The notes under the pieces were generated by a model, which worked only from the letters and a program-made list of their open reading frames with translations, ran no database searches and had not been told where the DNA came from. The position numbers and the translations under genes were made by a program. DNA of 37,308 nt, from the IMG/VR virus record IMGVR_UViG_2684623059_000004, one strand, 5' to 3'. Position 1 is the stretch's first letter. Each line of letters starts with the position of its first letter. Of this stretch, positions 1-29,547 are shown in pieces. Origin of the DNA: a virus (lineage: Duplodnaviria; Heunggongvirae; Uroviricota; Caudoviricetes).

Positions 1-258
1 ATGCAAACCGTTATTTTTGGGCGCCCGGGATGTCCTTACTGCGTGCGAGCGAAAGATCTGGCAGAGCAGTTGAGCAACGAACGTGATGATTTTCAGTATC
101 AGTATGTTGATATTCGTGCTGAAGGGATCACTAAAGAAGATTTGCAGCAGAAAGCCGGGAAGCCTGTAGAAACCGTGCCGCAGATTTTTGTCGATCAGCA
201 ACACATTGGCGGCTATACCGATTTTGCCGCATGGGTGAAAGAGAATCTTGACGCCTGA
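1..258 (+). CDS. grxA: glutaredoxin 1
   Basis: 85-aa ORF starting at base 1; CPYC active-site motif (GRPGCPYCVRAK); host backbone gene. Confidence 0.9.
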   Translation: MQTVIFGRPGCPYCVRAKDLAEQLSNERDDFQYQYVDIRAEGITKEDLQQKAGKPVETVPQIFVDQQHIGGYTDFAAWVKENLDA

Positions 259-289
259 TCGCCGGATAAGCCCTCTCTGTTTGAGGGCT

Positions 290-667
290 TTATTGATTTT
301 TTCTGTGATGTGGCTTGAACAGATTGCTGATAAATAAGAAGCACAACGCTCCCAGCGCACACCAGAAGACTGCACTTAATAACCACGCCAGCTCCTGCCA
401 AAATGAGCGGGTGGGAGAAAAAAACAGTCGCATAATTAACATCGAGCACGGTGCTGCCAGCATTGCGCCAAACAGCGGTTTAAGAACTTCTCTACGCTGT
501 GAAAAAAAGCTGGCAACCGCTCCAGGAAGAATGAAAAACAGCAGACCGATTTCAGGGTGCCCGGCAGCCCGAAAAGCGCCTTTCATATGCGTCGCCAGAA
601 AGAGGCACACCACAATGAAAAGGACAAAACAGCAGATTGCCCCCGCCCAACGTTGTTTATGTTTCAC
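290..667 (-). CDS. ybjM: inner membrane protein YbjM
   Basis: 125-aa hydrophobic ORF between grxA and ybjL, matching the known E. coli grxA-ybjM-ybjL neighbourhood. Confidence 0.65.
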   Translation of the reverse strand: MKHKQRWAGAICCFVLFIVVCLFLATHMKGAFRAAGHPEIGLLFFILPGAVASFFSQRREVLKPLFGAMLAAPCSMLIMRLFFSPTRSFWQELAWLLSAVFWCALGALCFLFISNLFKPHHRKNQ

Positions 668-935
668 TCGTTCCTCCTGACACTGCGTCTATCGAACACA
701 TTTTTCGCCAGTGTGGCGTTCAGTAAGATAAAGCCGCTTCGCATTCCATGCTAATATAGGCCAACGCAATTCTTATAGCCGCTGGTACCTAATGTGATTA
801 CACTAGTAAAATATATTGTTGCTTTACTATCGTTTAGGTGCGCTGAATGAATCTGCGCCCTGAGTTCTGGTAAAAACATTATCGTAAATTACCATTTCTT
901 TCAACAGCTTACTCGTAAACAAGAAGTTAGTCTCC

Positions 936-2621
936 GTGAATATAAACGTCGCCGAATTGTTAAATGGGAATTACATTCTGTTATTATTTGTGGTCCTCGC
1001 GCTTGGGCTGTGTCTCGGGAAATTACGACTTGGCTCAATCCAACTGGGTAATTCCATTGGCGTTTTGGTCGTATCGCTGTTATTAGGCCAACAACATTTC
1101 AGCATTAACACCGACGCACTGAATCTTGGTTTTATGCTGTTTATTTTCTGCGTCGGGGTCGAAGCCGGACCCAACTTTTTTTCCATTTTTTTTCGCGATG
1201 GGAAAAATTATCTAATGTTAGCCCTGGTAATGGTCGGCAGTGCGCTGCTGATCGCCTTAGGGCTGGGTAAGCTGTTTGGCTGGGACATCGGCCTGACAGC
1301 CGGGATGTTAGCTGGCTCCATGACTTCAACACCAGTTCTGGTTGGTGCCGGCGATACGTTACGCCATTCTGGTATGGAAAGCAGGCAGCTCTCTCTGGCA
1401 CTGGATAATCTTAGCCTCGGGTATGCGTTAACCTATTTAATTGGTCTGGTCAGTCTGATTGTCGGCGCGCGTTATTTACCGAAGTTGCAGCATCAGGACT
1501 TGCAGACCAGTGCTCAACAGATCGCCCGTGAACGAGGTCTGGACACCGACGCCAGCCGTAAAGTCTATTTACCTGTCATCCGCGCCTACCGCGTCGGCCC
1601 GGAACTGGTTGCATGGACCGACGGCAAAAATCTGCGAGAACTGGGCATCTATCGGCAAACGGGTTGCTATATCGAGCGTATCCGCCGTAATGGGATTCTG
1701 GCGAACCCGGATGGCGATGCCGTGCTGCAAATGGGTGATGAAATTGCGTTGGTCGGTTACCCTGACGCCCACGCCCGACTCGATCCCAGCTTCCGTAACG
1801 GTAAAGAAGTTTTTGATCGTGACCTTCTCGATATGCGTATCGTCACTGAAGAGGTAGTAGTTAAAAACCATAACGCCGTTGGTAAACGTCTGGCGCAATT
1901 GAAATTGACCGATCACGGTTGCTTCCTTAACCGCGTCATCCGCAGCCAGATAGAGATGCCAATCGATGACAACGTGGTACTTAATAAAGGTGACGTGTTG
2001 CAAGTCAGTGGTGATGCCCGTCGCGTGAAAACCATCGCCGATCGCATTGGCTTTATCTCAATTCACAGCCAGGTTACCGATTTGCTGGCATTCTGCGCAT
2101 TCTTTGTCATTGGTCTGATGATTGGGATGATCACTTTCCAGTTCAGTACATTTAGCTTTGGCATGGGTAATGCTGCCGGATTGTTATTTGCCGGTATTAT
2201 GCTGGGCTTTATGCGCGCCAACCATCCTACCTTCGGCTATATTCCGCAGGGTGCCTTAAGCATGGTGAAAGAGTTCGGTTTGATGGTGTTTATGGCAGGC
2301 GTTGGTTTAAGCGCCGGTAGCGGCATCAATAACGGCCTTGGTGCAATTGGCGGTCAAATGCTAATTGCCGGATTGATTGTCAGTCTGGTGCCAGTGGTTA
2401 TCTGCTTCCTGTTCGGTGCTTACGTACTGCGTATGAACCGCGCGCTGTTATTCGGCGCAATGATGGGAGCACGTACTTGCGCTCCGGCAATGGAGATTAT
2501 CAGCGATACTGCGCGCAGTAATATCCCGGCGCTGGGCTATGCAGGTACCTATGCAATAGCTAACGTGCTACTGACGCTGGCGGGGACAATCATTGTAATG
2601 GTGTGGCCAGGACTCGGATAA
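936..2621 (+). CDS. ybjL: putative AAE-family transporter YbjL
   Basis: 561-aa ORF with hydrophobic N- and C-terminal halves separated by a soluble central region; position next to ybjM. Confidence 0.8.
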
Positions 2622-2733
2622 ACCTGAAGTTGCCCTGAGAATGAAATTTTTTTGCACAAGCGCAGAACTTTTCTTCGGGGCATCAGTCTTAATTAGTGCC
2701 ACTGCTTTTCTTTGATGTCCCCATTTTGTGGAG

Positions 2734-2777
2734 CCCATCAACCCCGCCATTTAGGTTCAAGGTTGATGGGTTTTTTG
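2734..2777 (+). terminator. rho-independent terminator-like hairpin downstream of ybjL, near the prophage junction
   Basis: perfect 10-bp stem cccatcaacc (2734-2743) / ggttgatggg (2761-2770) followed by tttttt. Confidence 0.5.
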
Positions 2778-2856
2778 TTGCCTGATTTTTATGCCGTTTA
2801 AAATCATGATGTTAGAAGCATTGCTTTTTAATGATGGCGACAAAATGGCGGCAGCG

Positions 2857-3075
2857 TCAAAGAGAGAGCGCCACCTGTCCTGATTTCATTGGATGCGGCT
2901 GAACCGGATTTGACTCTTTTGGCGTTGCAATCGAACGAACAAAAGTTTCATGGGTAACAAAAGTGTGGCTGCAGTTAATGTTCTGGCACTGGTTGTAACG
3001 CTCTTTGGTCAATGAAGATACCTGAAAACTGCTGCGAGTATGGGCAGCACTTCCACACAGTGGGCAAATCATCAT
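2857..3075 (-). CDS. ogr: Ogr/Delta-type zinc-finger late-gene activator
   Basis: CPLC...CQNINC zinc-finger pattern; 72 aa from the internal Met (MMICPLCG), which matches P2 Ogr length; the first ATG at 3108 is probably not the start. Confidence 0.75.
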   Translation of the reverse strand: MMICPLCGSAAHTRSSFQVSSLTKERYNQCQNINCSHTFVTHETFVRSIATPKESNPVQPHPMKSGQVALSL

Positions 3076-3165
3076 TTTTCGAGTTCTCCCCATTTTTGCT
3101 AAATTCACAATAATGATACCGTATTATTCCATTTTGCAAACTTAAAAGTTCTCCATTGCGAAGAA

Positions 3166-4266
3166 TCACTCCATTTCGAAATCATCAATCCTCACTTCAA
3201 GCTCCAGACTGGTCGTAAAACCGTTATCCGGGCTGACAGTATGCGTCAGGGTGGTAATAGTCCATTCCGCATCATCTATCGGCTGTTTAAAGCCACTGAC
3301 TTTCACTGGCATTTCCGTGTAGAGATCTGCCCGCCCTTCTGCCAGTTGTAACGAGAATGACGCAACGCCGCGTTGCAGGCGTTCCCACTGCATTTTCGCC
3401 GCTCGTTCGGCGTTGCTCCGGTTGGCATAAGTGCGATTAAGTACCAGCACGTTTTCATCCGTACCCACCAGGTAATCGCCCTGCTTCGCTTCTGGCTCTT
3501 TCTTCTGCTTCTTAGTTCTGCGCTTACGCTTCACCGTGGTGCTTTCTTTCTTCGCGGGTTCGCGGGTATGCAACCAACTGGCAATTACGCCCGTATAGGC
3601 TCCGCGATCTGCCAGGGTAAAGCGGTGACTGTCGCCGTCCTTGCGTGTGATAGTGATCACCGGCAGAGGTCTACCGCTGGCGCTTTTGCCCTGTCCCTGC
3701 CGGATGAATAACAGATTGCCATTTTTCACCGACGCAATAGCACCGTACTGGCGCGCCAGCCGCATCAGAAAACTGCCGTCACTCTCATTGGTCTGGTCTA
3801 TATGTTCCACGGGCTTATCCGACAGGTCTTTACCCAGTGCCACCTTCAGCTTGTGCCGCGCGGCTATTTCCTTCACCACTTCCCCGACGGTGGTCTTGTG
3901 CCACGACTTTTCACGACGGGTATTCAGCGTTTCCCGAAAATCAGCACTTCGCGCCCGGATAGTCAGGCGGTCCGGTGCGCCAGTGTGTTCAATCTCGTCC
4001 ACCGTGAATGCCCCTTTAGGGAAAAGCGGCTGCCCCTTCCAGCCCAGCGCCAGCGTAATGACCGCACCACGGCGCGGCAGCACGATTTTTCCGTCAGCGT
4101 CGTCCAGCTCCAGATCAAGCTGGTCTGCCTCAAAGCCCCGATTGTCCGTCAGCGTCAGACTCATCAGGCGGTTATCCAGCACAGTGGTGATATCCCTGCC
4201 CTCAATACTGATGCTGAATGCCGGAGTTTTGTTGCCTTTGTTAAGCAGCTCAGAGCTGAAATTCAC
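3166..4266 (-). CDS. D: tail protein D
   Basis: 366-aa ORF in the P2 gpD position, ATGA-coupled to U; sequence resembles P2 D from memory. Confidence 0.8.
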   Translation of the reverse strand: MNFSSELLNKGNKTPAFSISIEGRDITTVLDNRLMSLTLTDNRGFEADQLDLELDDADGKIVLPRRGAVITLALGWKGQPLFPKGAFTVDEIEHTGAPDRLTIRARSADFRETLNTRREKSWHKTTVGEVVKEIAARHKLKVALGKDLSDKPVEHIDQTNESDGSFLMRLARQYGAIASVKNGNLLFIRQGQGKSASGRPLPVITITRKDGDSHRFTLADRGAYTGVIASWLHTREPAKKESTTVKRKRRTKKQKKEPEAKQGDYLVGTDENVLVLNRTYANRSNAERAAKMQWERLQRGVASFSLQLAEGRADLYTEMPVKVSGFKQPIDDAEWTITTLTHTVSPDNGFTTSLELEVRIDDFEME

Positions 4267-4748
4267 GACAGCAGCCCTCCCACCGTTTTACTTATATCGC
4301 TTAAGGCAGATGTTGCCGTTTCCTGCAGATTATTCAGTTGCACACTGAGATCACCGAACATATCGGACAGGGATTCATCCACCCGTTTGAGCGACAGGGT
4401 GAATTCAATCCGGCGCGGCATACCGTCGCGGAAAAACTCCGTTTTAGTCTGATTCAGTCCCTCAATCACATACATGCCATAAATCGTGCCGCTGCCTTCA
4501 ATCAGGGGCCATGCTTTCCCCTGTTCTGCCATCTGCTCCAGTGCCAGCAACGACAGCCTGCCACCTGTTATCTCCGGCATAAGAACACCGGAAAGCGTCA
4601 GCATGTCGTTGTCCGGTCCCAGAAACTGCGTGGACGGACGTCGGTTTACCCGGCTGTTTGCCGCATGTCGCCAGCTGCGTTGATACTGCAGCTCCTGATA
4701 CGGCACGGTGCGCAGCATAAACACGTACAATCCCAGCACCATCATCAT
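4263..4748 (-). CDS. U: tail protein U
   Basis: 161-aa ORF between T and D, overlapping both. Confidence 0.8.
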   Translation of the reverse strand: MMMVLGLYVFMLRTVPYQELQYQRSWRHAANSRVNRRPSTQFLGPDNDMLTLSGVLMPEITGGRLSLLALEQMAEQGKAWPLIEGSGTIYGMYVIEGLNQTKTEFFRDGMPRRIEFTLSLKRVDESLSDMFGDLSVQLNNLQETATSALSDISKTVGGLLS

Positions 4749-25980: not shown

Positions 25981-27927
<1,947 letters not shown>

Positions 27928-27979
27928 TCAACTTTCTGTTTTCCAGAAGTATTTTGCCTATTTTACGTGATAGCGCGCG

Positions 27980-27998
27980 CTCGTATCCCCGCCACGCC
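27980..27998 (-). other. cos-like cohesive-end site
   Basis: minus strand reads GGCGTGGCGGGGATACGAG followed by CGCGCGCT; first 13 nt and the GCGCGCT run match the P2/186 cos ends as I recall them. Confidence 0.5.
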
Positions 27999-28040
27999 TG
28001 CCCGCTTTATGTAGTGGTTTTCATGCACCTGCATGATCTA

Positions 28041-28068
28041 CGCAAAAGCCCGCCAGAACTGGCGGGCC
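28041..28068 (-). terminator. rho-independent terminator downstream of the lipoprotein gene
   Basis: 9-bp GC stem gcccgccag / ctggcgggc with 2-nt loop, followed on the minus strand by UUUU. Confidence 0.65.
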
Positions 28069-28171
28069 TTAACACAAAAGATCCTCAAACGATCATGCGA
28101 TCTCATGCAGCATAGACATGCGCGTTTATGCAGAATGTGCAAAATCGTAACATACTCAGTAAGCGTGAAAC

Positions 28172-28849
28172 CTAGAACGTGACAGCCTTGTCAAAGCCAG
28201 AAATAATTGTATAAGAAATAGACGAGTTATCAGCCTTGTTCACTTTGAACTTGGCACCTTTGTAAGCGATAACATCACTTCCCTTAGAATCTACAGAAAA
28301 ATCTGTTGTAAATGCTGCACGAGCCATATCGTTTGCAAATTCACGATAGGTGAACTTCATTACACCGCCTGCATTTCCATTGTATTCGATAGTCTTAACC
28401 AATGAATTACTCACTCGACACAGCCCATCAGGAACACGTTTGATAGAAATTTCTGATGCAGTATAAGAAGTGCCATTTGGCGGTGATATCTCATTTTTTG
28501 CAGCATCGTAACTAACATAATCAACATAGTTACCGATTTGCCCATAGAGATTTTTTAACGCAACAGCTTGAGGATTATGATAATTGCGGTAAATTCCATT
28601 CCCCTCACTGCAATATGTACCAGCAGCGATAGAAGACAATGCACCATTAGCCGCACCAAGTTCTAGTACGTCCGTTTTAAATCCAGTAGCAGATGTGATA
28701 ATGGGATCGCCCATGTAGGCGGTAGCACTTTGCCCAATAGCTGGCTTCACCACTTCAATAGCAGTGATATTTCGGTTAGAAGCATGTGGCACGCAACCAG
28801 TTAGGATTACAGCAAGAGATATTGGTAACGCTACATTATTAATTTTCAT
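28172..28849 (-). CDS. prophage lipoprotein at the P2 old/tin position
   Basis: signal peptide MKINNVALPISLAVILTGC with lipobox; start taken at Met19 of the longest ORF; own terminator. Confidence 0.7.
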   Translation of the reverse strand: MKINNVALPISLAVILTGCVPHASNRNITAIEVVKPAIGQSATAYMGDPIITSATGFKTDVLELGAANGALSSIAAGTYCSEGNGIYRNYHNPQAVALKNLYGQIGNYVDYVSYDAAKNEISPPNGTSYTASEISIKRVPDGLCRVSNSLVKTIEYNGNAGGVMKFTYREFANDMARAAFTTDFSVDSKGSDVIAYKGAKFKVNKADNSSISYTIISGFDKAVTF

Positions 28850-28962
28850 TTTTAGCCTATTATTCTTTTCTTGACAAAAAACAAGGCGATATCTGATTGA
28901 CATCGCCTCTCACTCATATGTAACCCTTTTTGATTAGTAAAAACAAGCGTCTATTGACAAAA

Positions 28963-29196
28963 TCAATGCAGCCAGCTGTCGTCTTCCCACACCTTCTGCA
29001 AAATTTTCATCACTTGTTTTCTTTCTTCGTCCAGTTGCAGTCCGGTCAGTTCCACACCGTTAGAGCTACCTTTACGGATACGGATTACCGTTTTGGGATA
29101 CAGGGGGCGCAGATTGCGGTAAAGCTCGGATTCAAGGGCGTCCAGGGTAGACTGGCTAATCTTCTGCTCTTTATCGATCATTATTTCAATGCGCAT
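28963..29196 (-). CDS. DinI-like protein
   Basis: 77 aa from internal Met (MRIEIMIDK...) with AGGTGA Shine-Dalgarno; C-terminal KILQKVWEDDSW resembles DinI. Confidence 0.65.
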   Translation of the reverse strand: MRIEIMIDKEQKISQSTLDALESELYRNLRPLYPKTVIRIRKGSSNGVELTGLQLDEERKQVMKILQKVWEDDSWLH

Positions 29197-29206
29197 AAAA
29201 GTCACC

Positions 29207-29395
29207 TCAACTGATGACATCCATTGAGCGGTTGTATTCGTGGGTTCTGATTTTTGCCATGAGTTCATCAGTCAATTCAGAAACCCACTGCAGAGCCAGC
29301 CCCTTCTCTTCATCACTACACTCACTAGCCGCTACAAGCTTAAGAAAAAAATCAATGCGCTGGAGCTTCAAAGACTCCAAAAAATAGTCCTGCAT
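29207..29395 (-). CDS. small protein, first gene of the LexA-boxed operon, possible Tum-like antirepressor
   Basis: 62-aa ORF with GGAGG 5 nt upstream of ATG; LexA box immediately upstream; function inferred from position only. Confidence 0.5.
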   Translation of the reverse strand: MQDYFLESLKLQRIDFFLKLVAASECSDEEKGLALQWVSELTDELMAKIRTHEYNRSMDVIS

Positions 29396-29437
29396 CTTTC
29401 CTCCTATGACACCACAAGCAATACTGTATACATAACC

Positions 29438-29457
29438 ACTGTTTATATTTACAGTAT
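29438..29457 (-). promoter_or_regulatory. LexA box
   Basis: ACTGTTTATATTTACAGTAT fits CTGT-N8-ACAG with AT-rich spacer; a half-match (TACTGTATACATAACCAC) lies at 29422-29439. Confidence 0.55.
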
Positions 29458-29547
29458 ATAATAATCTTACTGATGTAAAACGTTTTTTACGTTCATCGGC
29501 CTGATATGCCTGGTATTATTAAGAGCACGAATTGTTAACCCGCGTAA

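What the first reader, a model, noticed from the sequence alone, without database searches (positions are those of the whole stretch)
28172..28960. Lipoprotein cargo gene at the P2 old/tin position with its own promoter-like region and terminator
ORF 28172..28849 (-) encodes a protein with a classical lipoprotein signal peptide and lipobox (ILTGC) and no similarity I recognise to phage structural or replication proteins. It occupies the right-end slot next to cos where P2 carries old and tin, has an AT-rich upstream region with several TTGACA/TTGTCA-like hexamers, and ends in a strong terminator. Prophage lipoproteins in such slots often act as receptor-blocking superinfection exclusion factors.
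Basis: inference. Interest (0 to 1): 0.55.

Follow-up and report, generated by a model that had tools for sequence, protein, structure and literature searches.

The report
SOS-operon lipoprotein cargo beside phage cos
A real but uncharacterised outer-membrane lipoprotein gene is the last gene before the packaging site of a P2/Fels-2-like prophage; it appears to be switched on with the phage's DNA-damage operon rather than from its own promoter, and belongs to a large unnamed family carried by many mobile elements, often beside anti-phage genes.

Summary
The ORF 28172..28849 (-) is a real gene for a 225-aa lipoprotein. Its lipobox (LTGC) is conserved in all 22 aligned homologues, and residue +2 is Val, never Asp, so it is probably sorted to the outer membrane. 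It is the last gene before cos (27980..27998), the slot where P2 carries old/tin. The retron Ec67 downstream lies on the other side of cos and reassorts independently.

The "own promoter" claim is not supported. The 113 nt upstream hold a conserved terminator-like hairpin with a U-run, and no usable -35/-10 pair. The "strong terminator" is real but belongs to the conserved cos-proximal backbone.

The gene sits inside a coliphage-186-type SOS operon: LexA box 29439..29454, then orf62, DinI/Tum, hairpin, lipoprotein, terminator. In a published microarray, all three genes of the Fels-2 orthologous operon rose 2.6- to 14.8-fold after a mutagen.

The protein has no Pfam, NCBIfam, PADLOC or PDB relative, and no convincing structural match. 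It nevertheless belongs to a family of about 2,400 clusters at 50% identity. Members recur as single-gene cargo in unrelated prophages, islands and a plasmid, often near defence genes.

An envelope-level exclusion role is plausible but untested. Moderate interest.

The parts
29439..29454 (.). LexA box CTGTTTATATTTACAG, the operator of the SOS (tum-type) promoter upstream of orf62
   Evidence: It is the only exact CTGT-N8-ACAG in the window and lies 44 nt upstream of the orf62 ATG. It is conserved in L001, L022, L039 and the Buttiauxella locus L037.
29207..29395 (-). orf62, first gene of the SOS operon (phrog_698, function unknown)
   Evidence: Annotated in all related prophages.
28963..29196 (-). 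DinI-family, Tum-like gene (77 aa)
   Evidence: Pfam DinI at 9e-23 and phrog_189. Annotated as 'DinI family / TumB-like' in Fels-2. The Fels-2 orthologue STM2727 was induced 14.8-fold by the mutagen MX.
28122..28964 (-). The lipoprotein cassette as an insertion/deletion unit: conserved 5' leader, CDS and 50-nt 3' tail
   Evidence: It is absent from the retron-only prophages L022 and L023. In L022, 83 unrelated nt replace it, while both flanks stay 96-98% identical.
28875..28909 (-). Terminator/attenuator-like hairpin (11 bp, loop AAUCA) followed by GUUUUUUG, 26 nt before the lipoprotein ATG
   Evidence: Detected by the terminator scan. The fold gives about -16.6 kcal/mol for the stem and z -3.7. 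Across 3 diverged sequences, 97% of cells pair, there are 2 compensatory pair changes, and the U-run is invariant.
28172..28849 (-). Lipoprotein CDS, 225 aa. Signal peptide with lipobox L-T-G-C19. Mature protein is 207 aa, all-beta, with invariant C80 and C144.
   Evidence: PHROG 1353 at 3e-105. The exact protein was seen on at least 1000 public contigs, and a UniRef entry calls it 'Lipoprotein'.
28043..28070 (-). GC-rich intrinsic terminator that ends the operon 45 nt before cos
   Evidence: It lies in the backbone block 27972..28121 shared with prophages that lack the lipoprotein. A comparable hairpin is present in Buttiauxella.
27980..27998 (-). cos cohesive-end sequence GGCGTGGCGGGGATACGAG, marking the boundary between the right-end and left-end cargo slots
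   Evidence: It aligns to the annotated P2 cosR/cosL, GGCGAGGCGGGGAAAGCAC, with conserved flanks. Homology with Fels-2, Klebsiella and ATCC 8739 prophages stops 8-19 nt beyond it, at 27961-27972.
25981..27911 (-). Neighbour, not part of the unit: retron Ec67-type system in the cos-to-Q slot (msr/msd about 27779..27911 with a1/a2 repeats; RT-Toprim CDS 25981..27741)
   Evidence: NCBIfam retron_Ec67_fus at 4.7e-212 and PADLOC RT-Toprim I-C. The a1/a2 repeats were located. It occurs without the lipoprotein in 15 E. coli genomes.

Best explanation
**Shown.** The gene encodes a Sec/Lgt/LspA-type lipoprotein that is probably sorted to the outer membrane. The mature protein is about 22 kDa and all-beta, with two invariant cysteines. 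It is optional single-gene cargo at the right end of a Fels-2/P2-like phage chromosome, the last gene before cos.

It lies inside the LexA-operated operon of coliphage-186 type:
- LexA box
- orf62
- DinI/Tum
- a conserved hairpin with a U-run
- the lipoprotein
- the terminator

**Inferred about expression.** It has no promoter of its own. It is transcribed by read-through of the internal hairpin, so it is made at a low, attenuated level that rises when DNA damage removes LexA, at the moment the prophage is being induced.

**Inferred about function.** Once in the outer membrane, it changes a conserved envelope component or process, which protects the induced or lysogenic cell and the phage's investment. 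The most likely form of this is exclusion of other phages, at adsorption or at DNA entry. It acts independently of the neighbouring retron and of the phage's own tail-fibre specificity.
For: **Lipoprotein.** The lipobox is invariant in 22 homologues and residue +2 is V/A/S, never D.

**Real, constrained gene.** The family has 2,434 clusters at 50% identity with E<=1e-3, and 1,256 with E<=1e-10.

**Cargo.**
- The cassette is an indel at 28122..28964.
- It is in 50 of 5,426 E. coli genomes, against about 1,280 with the flanking DinI region.
- It is combined with different neighbours: AbiU/AIPR (Fels-2, Klebsiella), an HNH candidate system (ATCC 8739), a TIR/SEFIR protein (Buttiauxella), a STAS-containing trio (NCTC11121), and retron Ec67 here.

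**SOS operon.**
- There is a perfect LexA box at 29439..29454, conserved in relatives.
- No credible promoter lies between DinI and the ATG.
- The hairpin is kept by 2 compensatory changes.
- The whole block 27972..29547 is 97-99% identical among the window, Fels-2 and a Klebsiella phage. By contrast gpA is 82% and dam 72% identical to Fels-2.
- In Salmonella TA100, which carries Fels-2, all three genes of STM2726-STM2727-STM2728 were up after MX. Fold changes were 2.6 to 14.8, with p from 0.01 to 3e-5. No other Fels-2 gene appears in the paper's table of induced multi-gene operons (PMC2225428).

**Envelope or exclusion role, by association.** Relatives are single-gene cargo in:
- a Klebsiella aerogenes siphophage prophage, and Acinetobacter prophages and phages, next to the tape-measure gene;
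- a Moraxella phage tail region;
- a Psychrobacter integrase/DUF3987 element;
- islands carrying a retron (Geobacter), putAbiC (K. pneumoniae) or OLD nucleases (Citrobacter, Pantoea);
- a RepL/MobA plasmid.
Against: - There is no functional data for any family member, and no similarity to any known exclusion protein or defence model.
- Three relatives are ordinary chromosomal singletons, in Cronobacter, Kluyvera and Erwinia, so the family is not exclusive to mobile elements.
- The hairpin looks like an efficient terminator. If it is, little lipoprotein mRNA would be made.
- The microarray does not say which gene had the 2.6-fold value, and 30-min induction could include other read-through.
- A weak promoter in the conserved leader (CTTGTTTTT...GGGTTACATAT) cannot be excluded.
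- Defence neighbours are expected in any cargo hotspot, so the association is weak evidence.
Confidence: 0.4

Rival explanations
1. Classical autonomous moron. The gene has its own constitutive promoter, is expressed in the lysogen, and masks an outer-membrane receptor in the manner of Cor or Llp.
For: It is AT-richer than the backbone. TTGTCA hexamers are present. About 90 nt of 5' leader travel with the gene even where the upstream gene differs, and this leader could hide a promoter. The cargo position is the same as old/tin, which have their own promoter in P2.
Against: There is no -35/-10 pair with workable spacing; the only one found overlaps the start codon. A conserved hairpin with a U-run sits between any upstream promoter and the ATG. 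The protein is identical in phages with unrelated tail fibres, unlike receptor-matched Cor/Llp.
Confidence: 0.2
2. An envelope fitness or virulence factor unrelated to phage exclusion. Examples would be Bor/TraT-like serum resistance, protection against bacteriocins, tailocins, T6SS effectors or lysozyme, or envelope stress tolerance during SOS.
For: Chromosomal singleton relatives exist. The Cronobacter copy lies next to four LprI-type genes and a PG-binding protein. The family spans very diverse Gram-negatives. Sequence is highly conserved across host genera.
Against: There is no homology to Bor, TraT, MliC or LprI. Most sampled contexts are phage or defence-island cargo slots rather than virulence loci.
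Confidence: 0.25
3. A helper for phage lysis or release, timed by SOS. This would be analogous to colicin lysis lipoproteins, which sit behind a partial terminator in LexA-controlled operons, or to o-spanins.
For: The operon architecture is the same: LexA boxes, first gene, leaky terminator, lipoprotein. The gene is induced by DNA damage.
Against: The mature protein is 207 aa and folded all-beta, not the roughly 30-60 aa of lysis lipoproteins or o-spanins. The phage already has LysB/LysC homologues. Most P2-like phages lack this gene. Relatives occur in non-phage contexts.
Confidence: 0.08
4. An accessory component of the adjacent retron Ec67 defence system.
For: It is immediately upstream of msr/msd on the same strand.
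Against: A terminator and cos separate the two. The retron occurs without the lipoprotein in 15 complete E. coli genomes. The lipoprotein occurs with AbiU, TIR, HNH and other systems instead. No complete E. coli genome has both together. PADLOC describes RT-Toprim I-C as a single-gene system.
Confidence: 0.02

Closest known systems
Cor (phi80/N15/HK022/T1) and Llp (T5): phage outer-membrane lipoproteins that block FhuA (from established knowledge)
   Same: Phage-encoded lipoprotein with a lipobox, probably outer-membrane, single gene, non-essential cargo. Llp is likewise made during lytic development rather than only in lysogeny.
   Different: No sequence relationship: Pfam, PHROG and PADLOC show no shared family. 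This protein is about three times larger, with a different predicted all-beta fold. No PDB or BFVD hit was found. It is not matched to its phage's tail fibre.
P2 old and tin (right-end lysogenic-conversion genes)
   Same: Same chromosomal slot, between gpA/orf91-equivalent genes and cosR. Variable cargo of the known gpA-gpQ hotspot (PMC9122126).
   Different: old/tin are cytoplasmic and transcribed leftward from their own promoter near cosR. This gene is an exported lipoprotein, transcribed towards cos inside the SOS operon.
Coliphage 186 SOS operon (p95: tum, orf97; Brumby et al. 1996 as cited in PMC5322425)
   Same: A LexA-repressed promoter after the replication gene drives a DinI-domain antirepressor plus a further downstream gene.
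   Different: The downstream gene here is an unrelated lipoprotein preceded by a hairpin with a U-run. tblastn found no homologue of the lipoprotein in any deposited phage genome apart from Klebsiella and Salmonella P2-like phages and Acinetobacter and Moraxella phages.
Colicin operon lysis lipoproteins (bacteriocin release proteins; established knowledge)
   Same: A LexA-controlled operon in which a lipoprotein gene lies behind an internal terminator and is expressed by partial read-through.
   Different: Lysis proteins are about 30 aa when mature and cause quasi-lysis. This protein is 207 aa with a folded domain, and no homology was detected.
Lambda Bor and plasmid TraT (outer-membrane lipoproteins giving serum resistance or surface exclusion)
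   Same: Outer-membrane lipoprotein carried by a mobile element and acting on the host envelope. TraT is of similar size.
   Different: No Pfam match to Lambda_Bor or TraT, even at E<=1 across 41 family members.

Membership tests
Bacterial lipoprotein (Lgt/LspA/Lnt substrate, Lol-sorted) | N-terminal signal peptide ending in a lipobox [LVI][ASTVI][GAS]C | tested here: met
   MK-INNVALPISLAVI-LTGC19. G18 and C19 are invariant in 22 homologues. A lipobox-like motif is found in 133 of 165 full-length family representatives. Pfam LPAM_1 hits some members.
Bacterial lipoprotein (Lgt/LspA/Lnt substrate, Lol-sorted) | Outer-membrane sorting: no Asp at position +2 | tested here: met
   Residue +2 is Val here. 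It is A, V, S or T in most of the family and never D. Localisation itself is inferred.
Bacterial lipoprotein (Lgt/LspA/Lnt substrate, Lol-sorted) | Actual acylation and globomycin-sensitive processing | not testable with these tools
   Needs palmitate labelling or globomycin treatment.
PHROG 1353 (phage protein family of unknown function) | Full-length HMM match | tested here: met
   E 3.1e-105, residues 1-223 against profile positions 1-230 of 230.
Known exclusion or conversion lipoproteins (Cor, Llp, Bor, TraT) | Sequence or fold homology to the family | tested here: not met
Known or candidate anti-phage defence systems (PADLOC-DB v2) | HMM match to a catalogued defence protein | tested here: not met
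   0 families. So it is also not the lipoprotein-containing system of Vassallo et al. 2022.
P2-like gpA-gpQ cargo hotspot (Rousset et al. 2022) | Located between replication gene A and portal gene Q, next to cos, and variably present among related prophages | tested here: met
   Gene order is shown. cos was located. Presence is 50 versus about 1,280 genomes. WP_000700647 is listed as 'hypothetical' in Table S5A of that paper.
LexA-regulated tum-type SOS operon (coliphage 186 p95 type) | LexA operator at the promoter, followed by a DinI-domain antirepressor gene | tested here: met
   Exact LexA box at 29439..29454, conserved in relatives. DinI domain at 9e-23.
LexA-regulated tum-type SOS operon (coliphage 186 p95 type) | The lipoprotein is co-transcribed with, and DNA-damage-induced with, the operon | tested here: inconclusive
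   In favour: there is no intervening promoter, and all three Fels-2 orthologues were induced 2.6- to 14.8-fold. Against: a terminator-like hairpin intervenes, and no transcript mapping is available.
Retron Ec67 (type I-C) system | Obligate co-occurrence with the msr/msd-RT-Toprim module | tested here: not met
   The retron occurs without the lipoprotein. The lipoprotein occurs with other systems.

The most novel reading that the evidence does not exclude
The gene represents a large, unnamed family (about 2,400 clusters at 50% identity, with no Pfam entry and no structural match in PDB or BFVD) of mobile-element-borne outer-membrane lipoproteins. These would form a new class of envelope-level anti-phage or exclusion factor. 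In Fels-2-like phages the factor would be timed by the SOS antirepressor operon through a leaky terminator, so that the cell surface is closed to competitors exactly when the prophage commits to lytic growth.
Probability: 0.3. Interest if true: 0.65.

Novelty: new variant of a known kind. Interest (0 to 1): 0.45.

Why it matters
Prophage hotspots have mostly been mined for cytoplasmic defence systems. Exported single-gene cargo like this one is usually left as "hypothetical".

This protein is carried at 99-100% identity by P2-like prophages of Klebsiella pneumoniae (including epidemic carbapenemase clones), Salmonella and Escherichia. If it alters the outer membrane, it could affect susceptibility to therapeutic phages, bacteriocins or host factors.

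The work also gives a concrete, testable example of cargo wired into a LexA-controlled antirepressor operon behind an attenuator. That is a different expression logic from the usual constitutive moron.

It further clarifies that the P2 "gpA-gpQ hotspot" is really two slots separated by cos. The right-end slot holds the lipoprotein (old/tin in P2). The left-end slot holds the retron, AbiU, TIR and similar systems.

Tried and rejected
**Annotation searches that found nothing**
- Pfam, NCBIfam and PADLOC scans of the protein gave nothing. The one NCBIfam hit, a polysaccharide lyase at 13.9 bits against a 366-bit cutoff, is noise.
- A Pfam scan of 10 distant relatives, and then of 41 family members at E<=1, found only the lipid-attachment motif.
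- The PDB sequence-profile search gave 0 hits.
- Foldseek against BFVD and PDB gave nothing at E<=0.001.
- The afdb50 library was unavailable.

**Context and literature searches with little return**
- The genome-contig scan returned only one locus.
- Searches for the accessions or locus tags found one paper, the MX microarray.
- Table S5B of Rousset et al. was truncated in the held text, so the system-level entry could not be read.
- The "lipoprotein" defence hit of Vassallo et al. could not be identified in the supplements, but the PADLOC result argues it is a different protein.

**Readings rejected**
- The 243-aa upstream start is not conserved.
- The gene is not a retron accessory.
- The TTGTCA-18-AAAAAT "promoter" overlaps the ATG.
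- The gene is not tied to DinI: the Buttiauxella prophage has orf62 followed directly by the lipoprotein, with no DinI gene.

**Database artefact**
- In the protein database, the 90% cluster of the exact protein is wrongly merged with IlvE. This is why the first homology search did not list the identical protein.

Full report
**1. The observation**

The window is a P2/Fels-2-like prophage with its early genes on the minus strand. It is inserted beside grxA and rybB. That host flank is only about 91% identical to every E. coli genome, so the host is probably a non-coli Escherichia.

ORF 28172..28849 (-) encodes 225 aa beginning MKINNVALPISLAVILTGC. In an alignment of 22 homologues with 36-88% identity, the Gly-Cys of the lipobox is invariant, as are two further cysteines, C80 and C144. 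Across 165 full-length family representatives, 133 carry a lipobox-like motif. The residue after the lipid-modified Cys is A, V, S or T and never Asp. By the established +2 rule this predicts outer-membrane sorting.

The longer 243-aa reading from ATG 28903, used in some Salmonella annotations, is not conserved in the Buttiauxella homologue. PGAP annotates 225 aa. The gene is therefore real and is a lipoprotein.

**2. The position next to cos is right, and there are two slots**

The minus-strand sequence GGCGTGGCGGGGATACGAG at 27980..27998, with its flanks, aligns to the annotated cohesive ends of P2, GGCGAGGCGGGGAAAGCAC. The lipoprotein is thus the last gene of the virion right end, the slot between gpA and cosR where P2 carries orf91, tin and old.

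Homology to Fels-2, Klebsiella P2-like phages and the E. coli ATCC 8739 prophage runs from 29500 down to 27961-27972. That is 8-19 nt past cos, where it stops.

Beyond that point each phage carries something different between cos and the portal gene Q:
- retron Ec67 in this window (msr/msd about 27779..27911; RT-Toprim 25981..27741);
- AbiU/AIPR in Fels-2 and the Klebsiella phages, and an HNH candidate system in ATCC 8739;
- a TIR/SEFIR protein in Buttiauxella;
- a STAS-containing trio in NCTC11121.

The published gpA-gpQ hotspot (PMC9122126) is therefore two slots separated by cos.

**3. The gene is variable cargo and independent of the retron**

Retron-Ec67 prophages of E. coli match the window at 27600..28121 and at 28965..29500. 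They lack 28122..28964, and in one of them 83 unrelated nucleotides replace it. That interval is the lipoprotein cassette.

The gene is in 50 of 5,426 complete E. coli genomes. The flanking DinI region is in about 1,280, and the retron is in 15, none of which has the lipoprotein.

Rousset et al. list the protein (WP_000700647) as "hypothetical" in several hotspot arrangements.

**4. Promoter and terminator claims**

The 113 nt between the DinI stop (28963) and the ATG (28849) contain two TTGTCA hexamers. The only -35/-10 combination found ends inside the start codon. The regional count of promoter-like sites is 7, against 4.2 +/- 1.9 in shuffles, which is unremarkable.

What the leader does contain is an 11-bp hairpin followed by GUUUUUUG (28875..28909). 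Among the window, a 94%-identity E. coli allele and the Buttiauxella homologue (82% amino-acid identity):
- the stem keeps 97% pairing;
- there are two compensatory double changes, C:G to U:A and G:C to U:A;
- the U-run is invariant.

This is only three distinct sequences, but they support the same structure.

The "strong terminator" is real (28043..28070; -27 kcal/mol, z -5.3). It lies in the 150-nt cos-proximal block that all relatives share, including those without the lipoprotein. It is therefore the backbone's end-of-operon terminator.

**5. What drives the gene**

Upstream of orf62 is the only exact CTGT-N8-ACAG in the window, at 29439..29454. It is flanked by a second imperfect box and lies 44 nt before the orf62 ATG. 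It is conserved in Fels-2, E. coli and Buttiauxella relatives.

The layout is that of the coliphage 186 SOS operon (tum, orf97), as cited in PMC5322425:
- LexA-controlled promoter
- orf62
- DinI/Tum-like gene
- a further gene

The whole block 27972..29547 is 97-99% identical among the window, Fels-2 and a Klebsiella phage. The adjoining gpA and dam genes are 82% and 72% identical to Fels-2. The block, including the lipoprotein, therefore moves as one module.

In Buttiauxella the DinI gene is absent, and the lipoprotein with its leader follows orf62 directly, again behind a LexA box.

Experimental support comes from a microarray of Fels-2-carrying Salmonella TA100 treated with the mutagen MX:
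- the predicted operon STM2726-STM2727-STM2728 had all three genes significantly up, with fold changes from 2.6 to 14.8 and p from 0.01 to 3e-5;
- STM2727, the DinI/Tum gene, is listed among the top LexA-regulon genes;
- no other Fels-2 gene appears in the paper's table of induced multi-gene operons (PMC2225428).

STM2726 is the orthologue of this gene, with 99.1% nucleotide identity.

The best reading is that the lipoprotein is expressed by partial read-through of the internal hairpin, at a low level that rises with SOS. This step is inferred. A weak promoter in the conserved leader cannot be excluded.

**6. What the protein is**

It has no Pfam, NCBIfam or PADLOC family. It matches PHROG 1353, "unknown function", at 3e-105.

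An exhaustive profile search found 2,434 cluster representatives at E<=1e-3. Nearly all are 210-240 aa. They come from Enterobacterales, Acinetobacter, Psychrobacter, Geobacter, Gallionella, Desulfuromusa and Planctomycetes, and all are named hypothetical. None has a Pfam domain.

The AlphaFold2 model has mean pLDDT 80, and about 90 over residues 30-220. It is all-beta behind a disordered tether. It has no convincing structural match:
- Foldseek against PDB and BFVD gave nothing at E<=0.001.

AFDB could not be searched.

**7. Context of relatives**

| Context | Host or element |
|---|---|
| Single gene next to the tape-measure gene | K. aerogenes siphophage prophage; A. soli prophage; A. baumannii Vieuvirus phages |
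| Tail region | Moraxella phage |
| Cargo end of an integrase/DUF3987 element | Psychrobacter |
| Beside an integrase in an island with a PRTase retron | Geobacter |
| Island with putAbiC | K. pneumoniae |
| Islands with OLD-family nucleases | Citrobacter, Pantoea |
| RepL/MobA plasmid contig | not determined |
| Chromosomal singleton | Cronobacter, Kluyvera, Erwinia |

No partner gene is conserved. The pattern is that of a self-sufficient accessory gene repeatedly captured by mobile elements, often among defence genes.

**8. Mechanism**

*Shown:* an exported lipoprotein; optional cargo; embedded in the SOS operon; independent of the retron.

*Inferred:* outer-membrane location; read-through expression; action on the envelope.

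I favour an exclusion or defence role at the cell surface, with confidence about 0.4, because of the cargo slots and their neighbours.

A Cor/Llp-type block of the phage's own receptor is unlikely. The protein is 99-100% identical in phages of three host genera whose tail-fibre regions share no detectable DNA similarity. Any target should therefore be a conserved envelope component.

The rivals are:
- an autonomous constitutive moron (0.2);
- a non-phage envelope fitness or virulence factor (0.25);
- a lysis or release helper analogous to colicin lysis lipoproteins, which share the "LexA operon, leaky terminator, lipoprotein" layout but are ten-fold smaller (0.08);
- a retron accessory (0.02, contradicted).

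**9. Verdict**

The gene and its position are confirmed. The promoter claim is not. The terminator is real but belongs to the backbone. The exclusion idea remains an untested but reasonable hypothesis.

The gene is already in the databases as a hypothetical protein and in a published hotspot table, so it is not a discovery of a new locus. The additions here are:
- its operon wiring;
- the two-slot anatomy around cos;
- the size and orphan status of the family;
- its recurrent capture by mobile elements.

Interest is moderate, at 0.45.

Noticed in passing
window 25981..27911 (-): A complete retron Ec67-type system. The msr/msd has a1 (27898..27909) and a2 (27779..27790) inverted repeats, followed by a 586-aa RT-Toprim fusion (27741..25981). 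It is about 32% GC and lies between cos and the portal gene Q. No complete E. coli genome in the collection combines it with the lipoprotein cassette.
   Followed up: partly
window 27972..28121: A 150-nt block conserved at 96-99% in all related prophages compared here that share this cos-proximal backbone. It holds the operon terminator and the cos site (27980..27998) and is recognisably homologous to the right end of P2. Its conservation probably reflects terminase recognition as well as termination. Variable cargo begins only 8-19 nt past the cohesive-end sequence.
   Followed up: partly
window 16245..17180 (+): A 311-aa FRG-domain protein on the opposite strand to the surrounding tail genes. 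This is the second P2 cargo hotspot, the Z/fun position. It matches the PADLOC candidate defence family PDC-S15 at 8.5e-32.
   Followed up: partly
window 1..3100: The host flank ybjL-ybjM-grxA with RybB sRNA (2701..2779) is only about 91% identical to all 5,420 E. coli genomes that match. The host is therefore likely a non-coli Escherichia. The prophage ogr end abuts this flank.
   Followed up: partly
window 31959..32876 (-): A D12-class Dam methyltransferase lies just upstream of gpA. This is the gene historically annotated 'retron Ec67 DNA adenine methylase'. It is a backbone gene, present in relatives without the retron (Fels-2, ATCC 8739, Klebsiella phages).
   Followed up: no
window 10146..10718 (-): A Cin/Gin-type DNA invertase lies next to the tail-fibre genes, suggesting an invertible tail-fibre segment as annotated in Fels-2. 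The tail-fibre region shows no DNA similarity to Fels-2 over 10802..12673, and none to the Klebsiella phage over 10004..13921.
   Followed up: no
protein database cluster of window:28172-28849:-: The 90%-identity cluster that holds the exact lipoprotein sequence (1,023 members) has a branched-chain amino-acid transaminase (IlvE) as its representative. This is a clustering artefact, and it hid the identical protein from the first homology search.
   Followed up: no
L037 (Buttiauxella P2-like prophage), 2543..4400: The same architecture without a DinI/Tum gene: LexA box, orf62, leader hairpin, lipoprotein, terminator, cos (GGCGTGGCGGGGATAGCAT). A TIR/SEFIR protein then follows before the portal gene.
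   Followed up: partly
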